A stretch of 64,000 nucleotides of DNA from Candidatus Dadabacteria bacterium (lineage in GTDB: Bacteria; Desulfobacterota_D; UBA1144; Nemesobacterales; Nemesobacteraceae), in the NCBI GenBank assembly GCA_026705445.1, contig JAPPAR010000001.1, positions 8,030 to 72,029 of the forward strand, read 5' to 3'. A program made the position numbers and the translations under genes. Under the pieces are notes generated by a model that searched no databases, was not told the DNA's origin, and saw only the letters and a program-made list of their open reading frames with translations. The number at the start of each line of letters is the position of its first letter. The first letter of the stretch is position 1. Positions 57,672-64,000 of this stretch are shown piece after piece.

Positions 57672-59825
57672 GTGGCTTCTTCGGTAACGGACATTTCGAG
57701 CAAGAGGTTCCCGCTTCGCCCTTCTGAGCGGTATATCAACAGGGAGCTTTCCTGGCTTGATTTCAATCTGCGGGTTTTGGAGACGGCGGCCAGCAAGAAT
57801 GTTCCGCTTCTTGAGAGGGTGCGCTTTCTCTCCATCTCCGCAAGCAATCTCGATGAGTTCTACATGGTAAGGGTAGCGGGTCTTGCGGGACAGGTTATGG
57901 AAGGTGTGACCGACCGCAGCAAAGACGGCCTTACACCCTCCCAGTAGCTCGAAGCCATAAGGGGGAAGGTCCGTTCCCTGCTTGACAGCCAGTACGAGTG
58001 CGAAAAGGAACTGTTTTCCCTCTGCAAGAAGGCGGGGATCAAGATCGTAACTCCCGAGAAACTTGACCGCTCGGGCGCGAAGTGGCTCTCCGAGTGGTTC
58101 TCGAATAAGCTTTTCCCGGTTCTTACCCCGCTTGCCATAGACCCGGCGCATCCGTTCCCCTTCATACAGAGTGAGCGCCTTGTATGCGCCGTGCAGCTAA
58201 GCCGCGCCGAGGACGGAAAGCGCATGAAGGGTCTTATACTGCTGCCTTCCCAGGTGGAGCGCTTCATAGAGGTTCCGGGAGGAAAAAAAGTACAGTTTGT
58301 TCCGATCGAGAAGGTTATCGAGCACAACATGAAATTCCTTTTCCCGGGTTTTGAGGTTGAGGACAACGGAATCTTCCAGATCACCCGCGACAGCCTTCTT
58401 GAGATAGACGAGGACGCGGAAGACCTGGTAGAGACGTTTGAGACGGCGCTTAAGCAGCAGCGCAGGGGAGGCTCCGTGATCAGGGTTGACGTCAACGCGG
58501 ATATGCCGGATGCGATAGTTGACTTCATAATGGAGAAGATTGAGGCCCACGACGCGCATTTTTTCAGGATCAAGGGGATGCTCGGGCTTGAAAGCGTGAA
58601 ACAGATAATAATCGATGAGCGAAGCGACCTTCTTTACAAGCGCATGAATATCCGCTACCCCGAGAGGGTAAGGGAATTCGGGGGCGACGTAATAGCCGCC
58701 ATACAGCAGAAGGATTTCGTCGTTCACCACCCTTACGAGAGTTTCGACGTCGTCGTTGAGTTCCTGAAGCAGGCCGCGGCGGACCCGGCGGTCGTCGCGA
58801 TCAAGCAGACGCTTTACCGCACCTCGGAAGACTCCCCGATAGTGAAAAGGCTCATAGAGGCCGCCGAGACCGGAAAATCCGTAACTGCCATGGTGGAGCT
58901 AAAGGCCCGTTTCGATGAGGAGGCCAACATTCGCTGGGCGCACGATCTCGAGGACGCGGGGGTTCAGGTCGTGTACGGATTCATCGATCTTAAGACCCAC
59001 GCCAAGGTGTCTCTTGTGGTGAGAAGGGAGGGTTCTGACATCCGCACCTACACCCACTATGGCACCGGCAACTATCACCCCGTAAACGCCAAGATATATA
59101 CTGACCTCAGCTACTTCACGGCCGACGAGGCGCTGGGTCGCGACGCCGCCAAGCTTTTTAACTACATGACCGGCTACGCCACTCCTAAGAAGATGGAGAG
59201 GATATTCTTCTCTCCCGTAACGATGCGCCCGAAGGTGCTTGAATTGATAAGGGACGAGGTAGACCACGCGAAGGCCGGCCGTCCCGCGGTTATATGGGCC
59301 AAGATGAACTCCCTTGTGGACAGCAAGATAATAGACGCGCTTTACGCGGCGAGCCGCGCGGGGGTGCGCGTCGAGCTTTTCGTTCGGGGAATATGCTGCC
59401 TGCGGCCCGGGATGCCTGGGCTCTCCGAGAACATAAGGGTGAAGAGCATCGTGGGACGTTTCCTCGAGCACAGCAGGGTCATCTGCTTCGGCGCGGGGGA
59501 AGGGCTTCCCTCTAATGCCTGCAAGGTCTTCATCTCGTCCGCAGACTGGATGCCCCGCAATCTTGACCGCAGGGTGGAGTCGCTTGTTCCGATCGAAAAC
59601 GCCACCGTGAAAAAGCAGCTCGTTGAGCAGGTGATGGTCGCTAACTTAAACGATGTAGCTAACAGCTGGGAAATGCTTCCCGACGGTTCTTTCCGCAAGC
59701 TTAAAAGCGATGCGGACAGCTTCTCGGCTCACAAGTACTTTATGACTAACCCCAGTCTTTCGGGACGAGGCAAGGCGCTTGCCGAATCCAGGCCGGTAAT
59801 GCCGGCTGAGTTTGTGCAGGAATAA
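57672..59825 (+). pseudogene. ppk: Polyphosphate kinase 1 interrupted by an in-frame TAG at 57945-57947 (codon 92); the frame reopens and continues to 59825
   Basis: The N-terminal segment [18 protein letters not shown]...[20 protein letters not shown] and the downstream ORF are collinear with PPK1 in the same frame. The TAG is read directly in the sequence (TPSQ*LEAIRGKV). Confidence 0.6.
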
Positions 59826-60024
59826 TTCATGGCAGAGATTCTTTTCCCCGCCTCACCCTTCGGCAAAAACGGAAGTATGCGTGTATTATCTTAAGTTCAG
59901 GAGATAAAGCTGGCAGTGTGTAGTGATTAAAAATCAAGCAATCTTTTACAAAATTTGAAACCACGATTAAAAAAAGGATAATTGTTATCAAGTTATTTGA
60001 GTGATTCAGGAGGAGATTTAAAAC

Positions 60025-60243
60025 ATGGACCCCGAGAAACAACTTAAGTCCGAGGATAAGAAGAAAGATATAGATGATCAGTCGTTTGAACATCTGCATC
60101 GTAATTTGTTTGACCATCCGAACGACGAAGAATGGAGTGCGACTCGCTCACTGGCCCAACCTTCATTTCTCAAGCAGATTAACAGCCACGGTAGTGCCCA
60201 CAGCCAACCAATGAAGGTTTCCCCAACCACTTCCGAACAATAA
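60025..60243 (+). CDS. Small acidic, His-containing hypothetical protein, translationally coupled (TAATG) to the downstream peptidase
   Basis: 72-aa ORF in a low-GC insertion. Its stop overlaps the next start by 1 nt. Confidence 0.35.
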   Translation: MDPEKQLKSEDKKKDIDDQSFEHLHRNLFDHPNDEEWSATRSLAQPSFLKQINSHGSAHSQPMKVSPTTSEQ

Positions 60244-61151
60244 TGCCTAACTGGTCAGAAGTACTGAACGAGATCAGGAATCTTGACGCTAAACTAATAT
60301 CCCAGTCAGCGCCTGATCAGGTTCGTCGCAAATATCTTAAAAACCTGTTTGAAAAAACCGGTCGCAATACTGTTGCCTACTATTCGGGCTGGCTGTCAAA
60401 GCCCAATATAGAAGGCATTCATATTAACGACGAAGATAAGAACGGCTTTATGATGGCTGTTCATGAGCTTGACCGTTCAGTTGGACTTGACTTAATTCTG
60501 CATACCCCGGGTGGAGAGCTTCACGCAACGGAATCAATTATTCATTATCTTCACCAGATGTTTAATGACGACATTCGCGTTATCGTACCACAGATAGCCA
60601 TGTCGGGTGGTACCCTTATTGCGTGTTCCAGCAAGCAGATACTGATGGGCGCTCATTCAAACCTGGGTCCGATTGATCCACAGTTACGGGGAGTGCCCGC
60701 ATATGGTGTAATTGAGGAATTTCGAACTGCTGCGGCACAGATTAAGGAAGACCCCAGCAAAGTCCATGTTTGGAATCCAATTCTCTCCAAGTATCATCCG
60801 ACATTTCTCAGCCAATGCAAAAACGCAATTGAACATAGCAGCGAAGTTGCCCAAAACTACCTAGAAAGAGTTATGTTTAAGGGTGTTGCTGACAGGAGGA
60901 AGATTGCCGAGAAAATTGTCAAAGGTCTGACTGATTACTCAGGCAACAAATCCCATGCCAGGCACATTCATATCGATGAATGCAAAGCTCTTGGATTAAA
61001 AGTTTCGGAGTTTGAATCCGATCAAGAGCTGCAGGAACTTGTTTTAACCGTGCATCATGCGTTTATCCATACCCTTATGAATACACCATCGGTTAAAATC
61101 ATCGAAAATCACCTTGGTCGAGCTTTGATCAAGACTTTCGTATCAGGGTAG
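60243..61151 (+). CDS. ClpP/SppA-class serine peptidase (SDH 'serine dehydrogenase proteinase'-like, S49-like)
   Basis: LHTPGGELHA (compare ClpP/SppA xSPGG) and a catalytic-Ser context IAMSGGTLIA (compare SppA AASGGY). 302 aa with no TM segment. GC about 45%. Confidence 0.55.
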   Translation: MPNWSEVLNEIRNLDAKLISQSAPDQVRRKYLKNLFEKTGRNTVAYYSGWLSKPNIEGIHINDEDKNGFMMAVHELDRSVGLDLILHTPGGELHATESIIHYLHQMFNDDIRVIVPQIAMSGGTLIACSSKQILMGAHSNLGPIDPQLRGVPAYGVIEEFRTAAAQIKEDPSKVHVWNPILSKYHPTFLSQCKNAIEHSSEVAQNYLERVMFKGVADRRKIAEKIVKGLTDYSGNKSHARHIHIDECKALGLKVSEFESDQELQELVLTVHHAFIHTLMNTPSVKIIENHLGRALIKTFVSG

Positions 61152-61327
61152 CAATAGCCGTTATGGCTAGACTGCTTCAAATAGAGAGTTTTTCCGACAT
61201 TACGACAGGTCTAGGACGGATGAAGCTGCTTAATGCTATGGACAATCTGAATACCTGGAAACGAGGTGACAACCGAAAAATCCTTGCTTTTTCTATCTGC
61301 GCTTGTTGAGCAAGCCGGGAACAATCC

Positions 61328-62860
61328 ATGACAGAAATCTCTCCTCCCGCCACGCCGTTCGGCAAGGCCGGAACCGTGGCGGTAATTGACGTGGGATCGA
61401 ATTCCATACGTCTTGTGATCTACAAGGGCCCTAGGCGCGCCCCGCTTCCGATACTTGATGAGAAGGTTCCCTGCGGCTTGGGGCGCGGGATGGATTCTCA
61501 GGGCAGGATGTCTCCGCAGAGCATGGATCTCGCCCTGCGAACTGTAAGCCGCTTTGTCGATATCGCGCGGTCCATGAGGGTTTCCGGCGGAATAAAGGCG
61601 GTTGCCACCGCTGCGGTGAGAAACGCCGCAAATGGCCCCGATTTCAAAAAGGCCGTTGAGCAGCAATGCGGGATTTCTCTTCGGGTGCTCTCCGGCATGG
61701 ACGAGGCTAGGCTTTCTGCTCTTGGCACTCTCTGCGCTATCCCTGACGCTGACGGCGTAATGGGGGACATAGGCGGCGGAAGCCTTGAATTGGTGGAGAT
61801 CTGCGAGGGGGAAATAGGAAACCACGCTACATTGCCGCTTGGCACGATACCGCTTCTTGAAAGCGGTCTGAGTCCCGTGAAAGCCCGCAAGAAACTGATT
61901 GCCCCCCTCCTTGACGAGCTTCCCTGGCTTGAGAACGCGAAAAAGAAGACCTTCTACGCCGTCGGGGGTTCGTGGAGAGCCTTGGCTAAAAAACACATGG
62001 AGTCTGATGATTACCCGCTTCGAATAGTTCACGGCTACAGTCTTTCCAGATCAAGGGCAGTTGATATGGTCCGGGAGATAGCCGAGATGTCTTCAGGTTC
62101 GCTTCAGGACCTCTGGATTCTGGGGCGAAACAGGGTGGAGTCTGCTCCTTACGCCGCCACGCTTATGAAGAGTCTTTTAAAAAAAACGGACGTTAACAAC
62201 CTTACGTTCTGCACGTACGGGCTTCGGGAGGGATGCATATACGACGATCTTTCCCCGGAGCAGCGTTCTCTGGATCCTCTGGTTGTCATGTGTGAGGAGA
62301 TTGCCCTTAAGATGGGAAGATCCATTGAGGAGGGCAAGGCTTTCTGCAGGTGGATAGATCTGGCGATTCCTGATAAATACTCTAGGGACCCGAGGTTGAG
62401 ACTCGCTGCATGCCATCTCTCGGACATAGGAATTTCCGAGCATCCGGAGTACCGCGCGGAGCAGGTGTTTTTGAGGATACTGCGGATGCCGTTTGTGGGA
62501 ATTGCTCATCCGGAGAGGGTGATGGTAGCTCTGTCGGTGGCCTCAAGGCACGCAGCGATCGGAAACTTGGTCCGTCGCTGGGAAGTCTCGGATTTTCTTT
62601 CCGGAGACGATATTGAAGAAGCTAGGGTTACGGGGCTTGCGCTTCGCCTGGCCTACACGGTTTCAGGAGGAGTGGCGCGGATTCTTGAGAGCACTAGGCT
62701 TGAGAGGACCGGAGAAAAACTTGTTTTACATATGCCTGACCAGATTCCACATCCGGAAACTGTAGGTAGGCGTCTGGGCGCCCTTGCCAAGGCCGTCGGA
62801 TGCGATTACGAGACGATTGCAGGGGAGGTGTCTTTGGTTAGAACAGCAAGATTTATGTAA
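61328..62860 (+). CDS. ppx: Exopolyphosphatase (Ppx/GppA family)
   Basis: N-terminal AVIDVGSNSIRLVIY and the ASKHA fold typical of Ppx/GppA. 510 aa. Confidence 0.85.
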   Translation: MTEISPPATPFGKAGTVAVIDVGSNSIRLVIYKGPRRAPLPILDEKVPCGLGRGMDSQGRMSPQSMDLALRTVSRFVDIARSMRVSGGIKAVATAAVRNAANGPDFKKAVEQQCGISLRVLSGMDEARLSALGTLCAIPDADGVMGDIGGGSLELVEICEGEIGNHATLPLGTIPLLESGLSPVKARKKLIAPLLDELPWLENAKKKTFYAVGGSWRALAKKHMESDDYPLRIVHGYSLSRSRAVDMVREIAEMSSGSLQDLWILGRNRVESAPYAATLMKSLLKKTDVNNLTFCTYGLREGCIYDDLSPEQRSLDPLVVMCEEIALKMGRSIEEGKAFCRWIDLAIPDKYSRDPRLRLAACHLSDIGISEHPEYRAEQVFLRILRMPFVGIAHPERVMVALSVASRHAAIGNLVRRWEVSDFLSGDDIEEARVTGLALRLAYTVSGGVARILESTRLERTGEKLVLHMPDQIPHPETVGRRLGALAKAVGCDYETIAGEVSLVRTARFM

Positions 62861-62956
62861 GATTTAGAAGATTAAAAGCCTCTGTATATTTACCTTGTAC
62901 TATCGAAAAAAGCTTATAATTCTTACAGAAAATATCAATCAGAAGGGTAAAAGGAA

Positions 62957-63484
62957 TTGAACATCGACTCGCTAATAGACTTTACCAATGAAGCTACTAA
63001 AGAAATAGCCAAGTATAAACGTGATTTTATACTGTCTCAGCCGAAAATGATAAAGAAGGATAAAAAATACATTATTTCTACTCTTGATTGGAACTCTGTT
63101 AGCTATGGTCCTGCAGAAGTGAATAAGGTTCCGAATGATAAACGTGGTATATACGCTTTTGCGATTTGTCAAAAGAGTGCTGTGTTACCGCCACACGGGT
63201 ATATTTTATATATAGGAATTGCGGGTCGTGATTCAAAACGCTCACTTAGAAAGCGCTATAAAGACTACCTGAATGAGCACGAAGTTAGAAAACGTGATGG
63301 GATCGCACGAATGATTGGGACATGGCATAAAGTCCTAAGGTTCTTCTTTGCTCCGGTAGATGACAATGTTTCTTCTGATGATCTCAAGAAATTGGAACAA
63401 CAGTTAAATACGGCACTTATGCCACCGTTCTCTATAAACGATTTGGAAGCTGATACGAAGAGAAAGATAAGGGCGTTCAAGTGA
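62957..63484 (+). CDS. GIY-YIG-like nuclease-domain protein
   Basis: RGIYAF ... YILYIGIAGRDSKRSLRKRYKDYLNEHE fits GIY...YIG...R..R...H/E spacing. Low-GC region. The stop overlaps the next start (GTGA). Confidence 0.4.
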   Translation: MNIDSLIDFTNEATKEIAKYKRDFILSQPKMIKKDKKYIISTLDWNSVSYGPAEVNKVPNDKRGIYAFAICQKSAVLPPHGYILYIGIAGRDSKRSLRKRYKDYLNEHEVRKRDGIARMIGTWHKVLRFFFAPVDDNVSSDDLKKLEQQLNTALMPPFSINDLEADTKRKIRAFK

Positions 63485-64000
63485 GGAAAATCAAGCCAAA
63501 AAAAATTATCTTACCTGCTCTCCGCGGTATTATGGGTGATTGGGTGTACTATTCCTGTCTTTTAGATTTGCGAGAATTGAGTTTAAGAGTTGATTATGCA
63601 AAGGAAATTCATAATAACGAAAAGCTTTCGGACATGATACAGAGAAGGTTAGAAGAGTACCGAGGTAAACTAATTGCCGAATATCTCCATATGCAACCGG
63701 AGCGGTTTTTCAATTCTCTTATTGTTGCTGTATATGGTGGTCAGCCCAATTGGCATGCATTGTCCGATGTTCGGAGTAAAGGGGAGAATGACGAACTCAA
63801 GAACCTTACTGAATCGACTATTGCTTCAGTAGGGTTCTTAACTCTTAGCGGAGACGAGAAACTCTTTGCACTAGATGGACAACACCGGCTTGCGGGCATC
63901 AAAAAGGCCATCGAAGATGGCCTCATTCAAGATACTTATGATGAGGTATCAGTTATCTTGGTTGCGCATAAGAATACAAAAAGAGGTTTAGAAAGGACAC
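63481..64000 (+). CDS. DGQHR-domain (DndB/DpdB-like, ParB-fold) protein, N-terminal part; the gene continues past the window end
   Basis: Manual translation from the GTG at 63481 gives ...LFALDGQHRLAGIKKAIEDG..., the defining DGQHR motif. The frame is open to the window edge and is absent from the ORF table. Confidence 0.55.
   Translation, partial: MRKIKPKKIILPALRGIMGDWVYYSCLLDLRELSLRVDYAKEIHNNEKLSDMIQRRLEEYRGKLIAEYLHMQPERFFNSLIVAVYGGQPNWHALSDVRSKGENDELKNLTESTIASVGFLTLSGDEKLFALDGQHRLAGIKKAIEDGLIQDTYDEVSVILVAHKNTKRGLERT

What the first reader, a model, noticed from the sequence alone, without database searches (positions are those of the whole stretch)
59826..61327. Low-GC insertion between ppk1 and ppx carrying a TAATG-coupled small protein plus a ClpP/SppA-class (SDH-family) serine peptidase
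About 1.4 kb at roughly 43% GC interrupts the otherwise 60%-GC ppk1-ppx pair. It encodes a 72-aa acidic, His-containing protein whose stop overlaps the start of a 302-aa soluble ClpP-fold peptidase (LHTPGG, catalytic-Ser context AMSGG). Free-standing SDH or S49-like peptidases with a small coupled partner are not a standard housekeeping pair. Candidates include a prophage-derived prohead protease remnant, a toxin-antitoxin-like pair with a protease effector, or a small defence or processing module.
Basis: partly seen in the sequence, partly recalled or inferred. Interest (0 to 1): 0.55.

Follow-up and report, generated by a model that had tools for sequence, protein, structure and literature searches.

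The report
Mobile protease-plus-small-partner gene cassette
A 1.5-kb piece of foreign DNA sits between two phosphate-metabolism genes and carries a widespread but unstudied gene pair, a ClpP-like serine protease and a small disordered partner, that behaves like a selfish toxin-antitoxin or phage-exclusion module.

Summary
The 1,502 bases between the ppk1 stop and the ppx start are 43.5% GC against 55-56% in the flanking genes. They hold a 72-aa ORF whose stop overlaps (TAATG) the start of a 302-aa SDH-family (PF01972) ClpP-fold serine protease. Four Ca. Dadabacteria relatives have ppk1 and ppx only 3-4 nt apart, so this is a true insertion. It is bracketed by an imperfect 56-nt duplication of the junction.

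The small ORF is a real gene (dN/dS 0.1-0.2). A homologous or similarly organised small ORF sits directly upstream of the protease in nearly all 80 genomes examined, from more than 15 phyla. The same holds on plasmids and at accessory-gene sites of temperate phages. No third gene is conserved. The putative triad Ser121-Asp145-His238 is near-universal.

It is not a prohead protease, not SppA, and matches no PADLOC model. I found no paper describing it.

The best reading, which is inferred and not shown, is a protease-effector toxin-antitoxin or abortive-infection module whose partner restrains the protease. One close relative has an IS element wedged exactly between the two genes. An Enterobacter phage-plasmid has a broken protease with an intact partner.

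The parts
57672..59825 (+). ppk1 (left flank). It carries an in-frame premature TAG at 57945-57947.
   Evidence: Pfam PP_kinase_N, PP_kinase, C_1 and C domains. The relative L009 has CAG at that codon and an intact 717-aa gene.
59819..59874 (+). Left copy of the 56-nt imperfect direct repeat. It holds the real ppk1 stop, 3 nt, and a decayed copy of the first ~46 nt of ppx.
   Evidence: the repeat finder D1: 71% identity, spacing 1499 nt. Alignment to the empty sites of L092-L095.
59875..61317 (+). Inserted DNA proper, lying between the two repeat copies.
   Evidence: Absent from L092-L095, where ppk1 and ppx are 3-4 nt apart. GC 43.5%.
59955..59982 (+). Sigma-70-like promoter candidate, TTGAAA-16-GATAAT.
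   Evidence: Consensus scan, 10 of 12 matches. This is a prediction only. This 127-nt upstream stretch is not shared with other copies of the cassette.
60008..60015 (+). Shine-Dalgarno AGGAGGAG, 9 nt before the small ORF's ATG.
   Evidence: Read directly from the sequence. Homology between cassette copies starts here, at about 60002-60011.
60025..60243 (+). Small partner gene, 72 aa. It has a charged N-terminus, an LHRxLF helix motif, and SLAQPSFLKQ with an invariant Gln45-Pro46.
   Evidence: Conserved in L001-L012. An HMM hit lies directly upstream on the same strand in about 62 of 80 genome loci. dN/dS is 0.10-0.23. No Pfam, NCBIfam, PADLOC or PHROG family reaches its curated cut-off.
60243..61151 (+). 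SDH-family ClpP-fold serine protease, 302 aa, with putative triad Ser121, Asp145, His238.
   Evidence: PF01972 85.6 bits; phrog_11747 E = 1e-92. AF2 pLDDT 92.9. Foldseek finds SppA and ClpP, and giant-virus SDH proteinases. S121, D145 and H238 are conserved in 99, 95 and 94 of 100 divergent relatives. dN/dS is 0.04-0.09.
61163..61309 (+). 48-aa ORF, or a conserved ~115-nt tail, after the protease. Its status is uncertain.
   Evidence: Shared only with L001-L004 and L009. The differences are mostly synonymous over 'GR[MV]KLL.A.DNLN.WKR'.
61318..61373 (+). Right copy of the 56-nt direct repeat. It holds a decayed ppk1 stop region followed by the real ppx start.
61328..62860 (+). ppx (right flank).
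   Evidence: Pfam Ppx-GppA and Ppx_C. Relatives at 84-100% identity are named Ca. Dadabacteria.

Best explanation
This is a horizontally acquired, self-contained two-gene operon. A small, largely disordered partner protein is translated first. Through the TAATG overlap it is coupled to a cytosolic, catalytically competent SDH-family ClpP-fold serine protease.

I propose that it works like a type II toxin-antitoxin or abortive-infection module with a protease as the effector. The partner's conserved helix and Gln-Pro motif would bind the protease and keep it inactive, as a bait or pseudo-substrate. When the partner is no longer replenished, or is displaced (loss of the element, phage infection, stress), the protease would be free to cleave a conserved cellular or phage target. 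That would stop growth or phage development.

Shown: the insertion, its mobility, the obligate pairing, purifying selection on both genes, and conservation of the putative triad. Inferred: the physical interaction, the direction of control (partner restrains protease), toxicity, and any role against phages.
For: 1. Insertion and mobility. Relatives have empty sites. The insert is bracketed by a 56-nt junction duplication. The cassette is 99.4% identical to L009 while the flanks are 90-95% identical (dS 0-0.02 against 0.25). Other copies lie between mnmE and pheT, or beside SIR2, Abi_C, AAA_14, Fic and GIY-YIG genes.

2. Obligate pair and nothing else. The partner lies directly upstream in nearly all of 80 genome loci from more than 15 phyla. 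No third gene is conserved. Among 129 flanking genes most are housekeeping, with a few IS, PIN, AbiE, AbiJ and terminase genes.

3. Carried as cargo on mobile elements. It lies beside HicAB in Porphyromonas prophages, between gene C and the lysis genes in a Mu-like phage, and after the tail genes in Gordonia phage BeeGee, where a 58-aa ORF is coupled to it but not annotated. It follows the integrase in a Pseudomonas phage-plasmid, sits in the nin region of a Klebsiella prophage, lies between Q and the holin in Enterobacter, and is beside a RES-Xre toxin-antitoxin pair and an IS1 element on an Acidiphilium plasmid. In IMG/VR, 48 of 80 viral copies lie within 5 kb of a contig end.

4. An active enzyme. 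S121, D145 and H238 are near-universal and dN/dS is 0.04-0.09.

5. Asymmetric decay. L009 has an IS exactly between the partner stop and the protease start, with the partner 100% intact. In Enterobacter L099 the protease is broken and the partner is intact.

6. Two gene calls fuse a partner-like N-terminus to the protease, which hints at physical association.

7. Precedent for a protease as toxin: IetAS (PMC13069673, citing Yamamoto 2009).
Against: There is no experimental datum and no match to any PADLOC model. No paper was found.

The partner has no recognisable DNA-binding domain, and the promoter region is not conserved between cassette copies. Classical type II autoregulation is therefore not supported.

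Enrichment of defence genes among the neighbours of distant copies is modest (about 6% of the immediately adjacent genes) and has no baseline.

About 60% protein identity across phyla is unusually high for a toxin.

The two 'decay' cases are single observations. The Enterobacter one could be assembly error, and in L009 the protease could still be transcribed from the IS.

Co-folding could not be done. The one natural-fusion model was inconclusive.
Confidence: 0.42

Rival explanations
1. Processing module. The small protein is the dedicated substrate or precursor. The protease cleaves it, for example at the invariant Gln-Pro motif, and releases an active peptide that acts as a signal, regulator or effector.
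For: The pairing is obligate, and short motifs with an invariant Gln-Pro are strongly conserved, often close to the partner's C-terminus. The best PDB match is SppA with C-terminal peptides bound in its active sites.
Against: The partner has no signal peptide, and no export or modification genes are conserved nearby. This reading does not by itself explain the selfish, toxin-antitoxin-like distribution or the IS and frameshift cases that spare the partner.
Confidence: 0.2
2. Reversed polarity. The small protein is the toxin, and the protease is the antitoxin that continuously degrades it, with toxin-first gene order as in hicAB.
For: Toxin-first operons exist (established knowledge). The module sits next to HicAB in Porphyromonas phages.
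Against: The partner is hydrophilic, disordered and poorly conserved outside short motifs, whereas the protease is the highly constrained component. In L009 and L099 the protease is the gene that is displaced or broken while the partner stays intact. That would be lethal under this model.
Confidence: 0.08
3. A function that benefits the mobile element. The protease would degrade a host defence or regulatory protein (counter-defence or host takeover), and the partner would act as adaptor or timer.
For: It is present in temperate phages, phage-plasmids and 137 IMG/VR contigs, often at late-expressed accessory-gene sites.
Against: Most copies are solitary chromosomal cassettes between housekeeping genes, with no other mobile-element genes. 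That is the case here and in L008.
Confidence: 0.12
4. Remnant of a phage prohead (head-maturation) protease.
For: Weak sub-threshold hits to ClpP-related head-maturation models (NF045542 25 bits; phrog_1684 and phrog_53, E about 1e-3).
Against: The scores are far below the cut-off of 120. There is no capsid, portal or scaffold gene nearby. In phages the gene lies outside the head module, and one neighbouring prophage has its own Mu-like I protease. Structural matches to phage ClpP-like proteases reach only TM 0.3-0.4, against 0.55-0.58 for SDH proteinases. The gene is under strong purifying selection as a free-standing pair in hundreds of genomes.
Confidence: 0.02
5. Ordinary housekeeping protease, that is an SppA-like or quality-control paralogue of the lineage with a small adaptor.
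For: ClpP/SppA fold. Some sources name relatives 'ATP-dependent Clp protease proteolytic subunit'.
Against: It is absent from four close relatives at this locus. Its GC content is foreign and its distribution is sporadic and cross-phylum. It scores 26 of the 155 bits needed on TIGR00706 and 15.2 of 20.2 bits on CLP_protease. It has no membrane segment.
Confidence: 0.03

Closest known systems
Pfam PF01972 SDH_protease (formerly DUF114 / SDH_sah; MEROPS S49-related 'serine dehydrogenase proteinase'); PHROG 11747 (unknown function)
   Same: It scores above the Pfam gathering cut-off. It has a ClpP-like fold and the Ser-Asp-His order of conserved residues. Its closest structural matches are giant-virus 'serine dehydrogenase proteinases'.
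   Different: It is far below the NCBIfam equivalog cut-off (105 against 250 bits), so it belongs to a distinct subfamily. It has its own about 120-residue helical C-terminal region and an obligate small upstream partner. No annotation I saw and no paper I found mentions that partner.
IetAS (pTiC58 plasmid-stability toxin-antitoxin system; the Gao_Iet defence system): a serine-protease toxin with an AAA-ATPase antitoxin
   Same: It is a two-gene mobile module in which the presumed effector is a serine protease restrained by its operon partner. It is found on plasmids and other mobile elements (for the precedent).
   Different: IetS is subtilisin-like and not ClpP-fold (from my own knowledge). 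The partner there is a large ATPase, not a 60-85-aa disordered protein. There is no sequence relationship, and PADLOC IetA/IetS models do not hit this pair.
SppA (signal peptide peptidase A, S49) and its self-inhibiting C-terminal peptide (PDB 4KWB/3RST)
   Same: It is the best solved-structure match for the catalytic domain. It also offers a precedent for a peptide tail occupying the active site of a ClpP-fold S49-type protease.
   Different: TM-score is only 0.35-0.39 and identity about 15%. SppA is membrane-anchored and uses a Ser-Lys dyad (established knowledge). This protein is cytosolic, its conserved residues form Ser-Asp-His, and the candidate inhibitory peptide is encoded by a separate gene.
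Lit protease with the Gol peptide (E. coli e14 prophage exclusion of T4)
   Same: It is a prophage-borne protease whose activity is governed by a short peptide and which blocks growth by cleaving a conserved host factor. This is the functional analogy I propose, drawn from established knowledge.
   Different: Lit is a zinc metalloprotease activated by a phage peptide. Here the peptide is encoded by the module itself and is proposed to restrain the enzyme. There is no homology.

Membership tests
Pfam PF01972 SDH_protease (ClpP-like SDH-type serine proteinase) | HMM score above the curated gathering threshold | tested here: met
   85.6 bits against a cut-off of 31.3; residues 54-266 match profile positions 68-255 of 286.
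Pfam PF01972 SDH_protease (ClpP-like SDH-type serine proteinase) | ClpP/crotonase-like fold of the catalytic domain | tested here: met
   AF2 model with pLDDT 92.9. Foldseek finds SppA and ClpP at probability 1.0 (TM 0.35-0.41) and giant-virus SDH proteinases at TM 0.55-0.58.
Pfam PF01972 SDH_protease (ClpP-like SDH-type serine proteinase) | Catalytic residues in the order Ser, Asp, His | tested here: inconclusive
   S121, D145 and H238 are conserved in 99, 95 and 94 of 100 relatives at 34-53% identity, in that order. D145 aligns by eye with ClpP His122.
NCBIfam NF047768 'SDH family Clp fold serine proteinase' (equivalog) | Score above the equivalog cut-off | tested here: not met
   104.6 bits against a cut-off of 250. 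It is related to that curated subfamily but not a member.
Phage head-maturation (prohead) protease, ClpP-related | Match to head-maturation protease models above the cut-off | tested here: not met
   NF045542 gives 25.4 bits against 120. phrog_1684 and phrog_53 give only E about 3e-4 to 7e-4.
Phage head-maturation (prohead) protease, ClpP-related | Location within a head-morphogenesis module (portal, protease, scaffold, capsid) | tested here: not met
   No phage structural genes are present in the window. In phages the gene lies at accessory-gene sites next to HicAB, C/lysis genes, the integrase, the nin region, or Q/holin.
SppA signal peptide peptidase (S49.001 type) | TIGR00706 SppA domain above the cut-off, and membrane or periplasmic localisation | tested here: not met
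   26.4 bits against 155.45. No hydrophobic segment or signal peptide; maximum Kyte-Doolittle 19-residue mean is 1.34.
Type II toxin-antitoxin module | Two adjacent, co-directional, translationally coupled genes with sporadic, mobile distribution | tested here: met
   TAATG overlap. The pairing is conserved in about 80 loci. Relatives have empty sites and the genomic contexts vary. The pair lies on plasmids and prophages beside other toxin-antitoxin systems.
Type II toxin-antitoxin module | One product is toxic and the other neutralises it by direct binding | not testable with these tools
The only hints are indirect: an IS or frameshifts hit the protease while sparing the partner, and some gene calls fuse the two.
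Type II toxin-antitoxin module | Antitoxin with a DNA-binding domain that autoregulates the operon | tested here: not met
   The partner has no Pfam or NCBIfam domain. The upstream promoter region is not conserved between cassette copies.
Known anti-phage defence systems (PADLOC-DB v2) | Match of either protein to a defence-system model | tested here: not met
   No families hit either the protease or the partner.
Known anti-phage defence systems (PADLOC-DB v2) | Enrichment in defence islands | tested here: inconclusive
   Close copies sit beside SIR2, Abi_C, AAA_14/DUF4143, Fic and GIY-YIG_3 genes. Among 129 immediate neighbours of diverse copies only about 8 hit PADLOC models, and I had no baseline.

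The most novel reading that the evidence does not exclude
The pair would be the founding example of an undescribed, very widespread protease-effector toxin-antitoxin or abortive-infection family. There are at least 646 clusters at 50% identity, in more than 15 bacterial phyla, temperate phages and plasmids. In this reading a 60-85-aa intrinsically disordered partner with an invariant Gln-Pro motif acts as a pseudo-substrate bait that plugs a ClpP-fold Ser-Asp-His protease. Loss or displacement of the bait would release the protease onto a highly conserved cellular target, which would account for the protease's about 60% identity across phyla.
Probability: 0.33. Interest if true: 0.72.

Novelty: new variant of a known kind. 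Interest (0 to 1): 0.55.

Why it matters
Protease effectors are a small but growing class in bacterial immunity and addiction systems (Lit, IetAS, CalpL, Craspase). None described so far uses a ClpP-fold SDH peptidase with a tiny disordered partner.

This pair is abundant. It is carried by clinically relevant prophages and phage-plasmids of Klebsiella, Pseudomonas, Enterobacter and Porphyromonas, and it is completely unannotated. The partner gene is often not even called.

If the pair is a toxin-antitoxin or exclusion system, it would add a new effector fold and a simple two-component switch that can be tested directly. It would also give a function to part of PF01972 and to PHROG 11747.

Locally, it shows that the tightly linked ppk1-ppx pair of a reduced symbiont genome can be split by mobile cargo. 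ppx may now be transcribed from the cassette, because no terminator is predicted after the protease.

Tried and rejected
1. Co-folding of partner and protease.

2. Natural fusion. I modelled the truncated gene call P0346, which joins a partner-like N-terminus to the protease. The partner helix reached pLDDT about 80 but the linker was below 50. No contact information was returned, so the result is inconclusive.

4. Five literature searches (PF01972, SDH_sah, DUF114, S49, ClpP-like, protein accessions) found nothing on this pair.

5. Rfam found no RNA family in 59000-64000.

6. I searched for terminal inverted repeats or target duplications around other cassette copies (L002, L005, L008). None was convincing. 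Homology between copies starts only about 15-20 nt before the partner ATG, so no common transposition signature exists.

7. I searched for a conserved third gene. The only recurring neighbour is an IS1-like transposase, in 9 loci.

8. A zinc site formed by the conserved Cys and His residues is rejected. C128, C192, C247, H241 and H271 are not conserved in divergent relatives.

9. A partner-family search in the 5.8-billion-protein database returned only 23 unnamed 64-85-aa proteins and no fusions. Small ORFs are poorly represented there.

10. The antisense 96-aa ORF at 59827-60117 was dismissed as spurious. It overlaps the partner gene, which is under purifying selection in its own frame.
Full report
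**Observation**

ppk1 ends at 59825 and ppx begins at 61328. The 1,502 bases between them are 43.5% GC, against 55.8% for ppk1, 55.1% for ppx and 52.0% for the whole window. That is z = -3.1, and only 0.16% of 1.5-kb windows are as low. GC3 is 0.44-0.50 in the insert and 0.60-0.72 in the flanks.

A 72-aa ORF at 60025-60243 (pI 5.6) ends in caaTAATGcct, so its stop overlaps the start of a 302-aa ORF at 60243-61151. That ORF carries LHTPGG at residues 86-91 and AMSGG at 119-123, and has no hydrophobic segment.

**It is a true insertion**

The flanking ppx protein has relatives at 84-94% identity that sources name Candidatus Dadabacteria. In four such genomes (L092-L095) the order is dnaE, CYTH-CHAD, ppk1, ppx, exactly as here, but ppk1 and ppx are separated by only 3-4 nt.

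In the window the insert is bracketed by an imperfect 56-nt direct repeat at 59819-59874 and 61318-61373 (71% identity, spacing 1499 nt). The repeat is a duplication of the ppk1-stop/ppx-start junction. The left copy keeps the real ppk1 stop followed by a decayed ppx 5' end. The right copy has a decayed stop region followed by the real ppx start. This looks like a Campbell-type or att-like integration of DNA that carried a diverged copy of the junction. That is inference.

One close relative, L009 (a Thermodesulfobacteriota MAG, 94-95% nucleotide identity), has the same insert at the same place. There the tract 59806-61800, which covers the cassette plus the first ~470 nt of ppx, is 99.4% identical to the window. 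The flanks are 90-95% identical. dS is 0 for the small ORF, 0.02 for the protease and 0.25 for ppx. The cassette was therefore exchanged between these lineages recently, probably by homologous recombination. It is not ancestral synteny.

**The protease**

It scores 85.6 bits on Pfam PF01972 SDH_protease (cut-off 31.3) and matches PHROG 11747, a family of unknown function, at E = 1e-92. It falls far below the cut-offs for the following models:

| Model | Score (bits) | Cut-off (bits) |
|---|---|---|
| NCBIfam SDH equivalog (NF047768) | 105 | 250 |
| SppA (TIGR00706) | 26 | 155 |
| ClpP (PF00574) | 15 | 20 |
| ClpP-related head-maturation protease (NF045542) | 25 | 120 |

PADLOC has no model for it.

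An AF2 model is confident (pLDDT 92.9). It shows an N-terminal helical pair, a ClpP-like alpha/beta core and a helical C-terminal region. The best solved structures are SppA (4KWB, 3RST) and ClpP, at TM only 0.35-0.41. The best viral matches are giant-virus 'serine dehydrogenase proteinases' at TM 0.55-0.58, while phage ClpP-like proteases are more distant.

The family is large. A profile search found 6,367 representatives at 50% identity with E <= 1e-3 and 646 with E <= 1e-30. Nearly all are about 300 aa with a single domain.

Among 100 relatives at 34-53% identity, Ser121, Asp145 and His238 are conserved in 99, 95 and 94. His87, Gly90, Gly91, Ser139 and Lys285 are conserved in 95-97. The conserved Cys residues and His241, His271 and His272 of the close subfamily are not general. 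This fits the Ser-Asp-His order that defines the SDH family and argues for an active enzyme. Pairwise dN/dS is 0.04-0.09.

**The small partner is a real, co-inherited gene**

The same 72-83-aa protein precedes the protease in all close copies. Its motif is LHRxLFxHP...W.A..SLAQPSFLKQ, and dN/dS is 0.10-0.23.

In 80 loci from one genome per species, spanning more than 15 phyla, an HMM of the partner hits directly upstream on the same strand in about 62 loci and nowhere else. Most of the remaining loci carry a small ORF of a divergent type, with F..QFKxCS[IV]L followed by a Ser/Thr-rich tail.

The consensus is a basic or charged N-terminus, a short helix (LExxYxxLF), then SLEQPSxLKxVxSxTTYGAYEEPI, which often ends the protein. 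Only Gln45-Pro46 is invariant or nearly so.

The partner is also present, and often not annotated, in the phage and plasmid copies. In 57 of 65 IMG/VR loci that could be analysed, an ORF of 50 aa or more ends near the protease start. Two gene calls (P0346 and P0350) fuse a partner-like N-terminus in frame to the protease. No database name or domain exists for the partner.

**Context**

No third gene is conserved. The only recurring neighbour is an IS1-like transposase, in 9 loci. The 129 immediate neighbours are mostly unrelated housekeeping genes, with a few PIN, AbiEi, AbiJ, IetA-like, PDC-S01, terminase and Mu-protease genes.

Close copies lie in two kinds of place. One sits between mnmE and pheT (L008). 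Others sit beside SIR2, Abi_C, AAA_14/DUF4143, Fic, DUF433 and GIY-YIG_3 genes (L001-L007).

On mobile elements the pair sits at classical cargo positions:
- next to HicAB in Porphyromonas prophages;
- between the late regulator C and the lysis genes in a Mu-like Shewanella phage;
- after the tail genes in Gordonia phage BeeGee;
- after the integrase in a Pseudomonas phage-plasmid;
- in the nin region of a Klebsiella prophage;
- between Q and the holin in an Enterobacter phage-plasmid;
- beside a RES-Xre toxin-antitoxin pair and IS1 on an Acidiphilium plasmid.

137 IMG/VR contigs carry the gene. Of the 80 loci returned, 48 have it within 5 kb of a contig end.

**Two informative accidents**

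In L009 an IS4/Tn5-like element (754-aa transposase, 24-nt terminal inverted repeats, 9-bp duplication ATGCCTAAC) sits exactly between the partner's stop and the protease's start. It uncouples the two genes while leaving the partner 100% identical to the window's copy.

In the Enterobacter phage-plasmid the protease is split over three frames while the partner ORF is intact. Both cases are what one expects if the protease is the harmful component. They are single cases, however, and the second could be assembly error.

**Mechanism**

I commit to a toxin-antitoxin-like or abortive-infection module with a protease effector restrained by its small partner, at confidence about 0.4. Five points are shown:
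- the insertion and its mobility;
- the obligate pairing;
- purifying selection on both genes;
- conservation of the catalytic residues;
- cargo positions on phages and plasmids.

Inferred are the binding, the direction of control, toxicity and any anti-phage role. Against the classical type II scheme, the partner has no DNA-binding domain and promoters are not conserved between copies.

The main rival, at about 0.2, is that the partner is a dedicated substrate or precursor. Reversed polarity, a phage-benefit function, a prohead-protease remnant and a housekeeping SppA paralogue are less likely or are refuted, as set out in the rival explanations.

**Local expression**

A sigma-70-like promoter (TTGAAA-16-GATAAT, 59955-59982) and a strong Shine-Dalgarno sequence (60008-60015) precede the partner. 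No terminator-like site follows the protease, so ppx may now be read from the cassette. These are predictions only.

**Comparison and novelty**

The protein family is known by name only (PF01972, PHROG 11747). The two-gene system is not in PADLOC and was not found in the paper library.

The nearest functional precedents are IetAS, which pairs a serine-protease toxin with an ATPase antitoxin, and Lit/Gol. The nearest structural precedent for a peptide plugging a ClpP-fold S49-type protease is SppA with its own C-terminus.

I class the pair as a new variant of a known kind, namely a protease-effector addiction or exclusion module. The function is unproven.

Noticed in passing
window 57945-57947: ppk1 carries an in-frame premature TAG at codon 92, where the relative L009 has CAG. 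There is no frameshift, and the rest of the gene stays in frame and conserved. This could be a recent pseudogene, a sequencing error or read-through. ppk1 also starts with GTG here, against ATG in L009.
   Followed up: partly
window 62861-64000: A second low-GC block (32-43% GC) lies directly after ppx. It holds a 175-aa ORF (62957-63484) with GIY-YIG-like 'GIYAF...YIGIAG' motifs but no hit in Pfam, NCBIfam, PADLOC or PHROGs. In relatives the same position holds GmrSD (L092), MazG_C with an HTH protein and an M78 peptidase (L093), or nothing (L094, L095). It is therefore a variable hot spot, probably for defence cargo.
   Followed up: partly
L009 3651-6000: An IS4/Tn5-like insertion sequence whose 754-aa transposase carries an N-terminal DruA (PF14236, Druantia) domain. 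It has 24-nt terminal inverted repeats (CTTTCAAGCCGACACACTTGACTC) and a 9-bp target duplication (ATGCCTAAC). It is inserted exactly at the partner-stop/protease-start overlap.
   Followed up: partly
window 59806-61800 vs L009: There is a sharp mosaic. The cassette plus the first ~470 nt of ppx is 99.4% identical between the two genomes, while the flanks are 90-95% identical. This indicates a recent recombination tract with one end near the ppk1 stop and the other inside ppx.
   Followed up: yes
window 61152-61309: About 115 nt after the protease stop are conserved with L001-L004. The 48-aa ORF at 61163-61309 shares 'GR[MV]KLL.A.DNLN.WKR' with mostly synonymous differences. It could be a third mini-gene or a relic of the donor's flanking gene.
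   Followed up: partly
L091 3825-4001 (Gordonia phage BeeGee); L096 3808-4008 (Pseudomonas phage-plasmid CP137442.1): Partner ORFs of 58 and 66 aa that overlap the protease start are not annotated in the public records. The small gene is systematically missed by annotation.
   Followed up: yes
L001-L012 (record titles): The closest cassette copies (76-88% protein identity) lie in MAGs of different phyla: Poribacteria, Gammaproteobacteria and other Thermodesulfobacteriota/Dadabacteria. From my own knowledge, their isolate names suggest sponge or coral holobionts, which would point to within-habitat horizontal transfer. The habitat was not verified.
   Followed up: no
L157, L166, L169-L172 (IMG/VR): In one group of viral contigs the protease is preceded by a 146-157-aa sigma-70-region-4/ArpU-like regulator, about 32 nt upstream, where other copies have a small partner ORF.
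   Followed up: no
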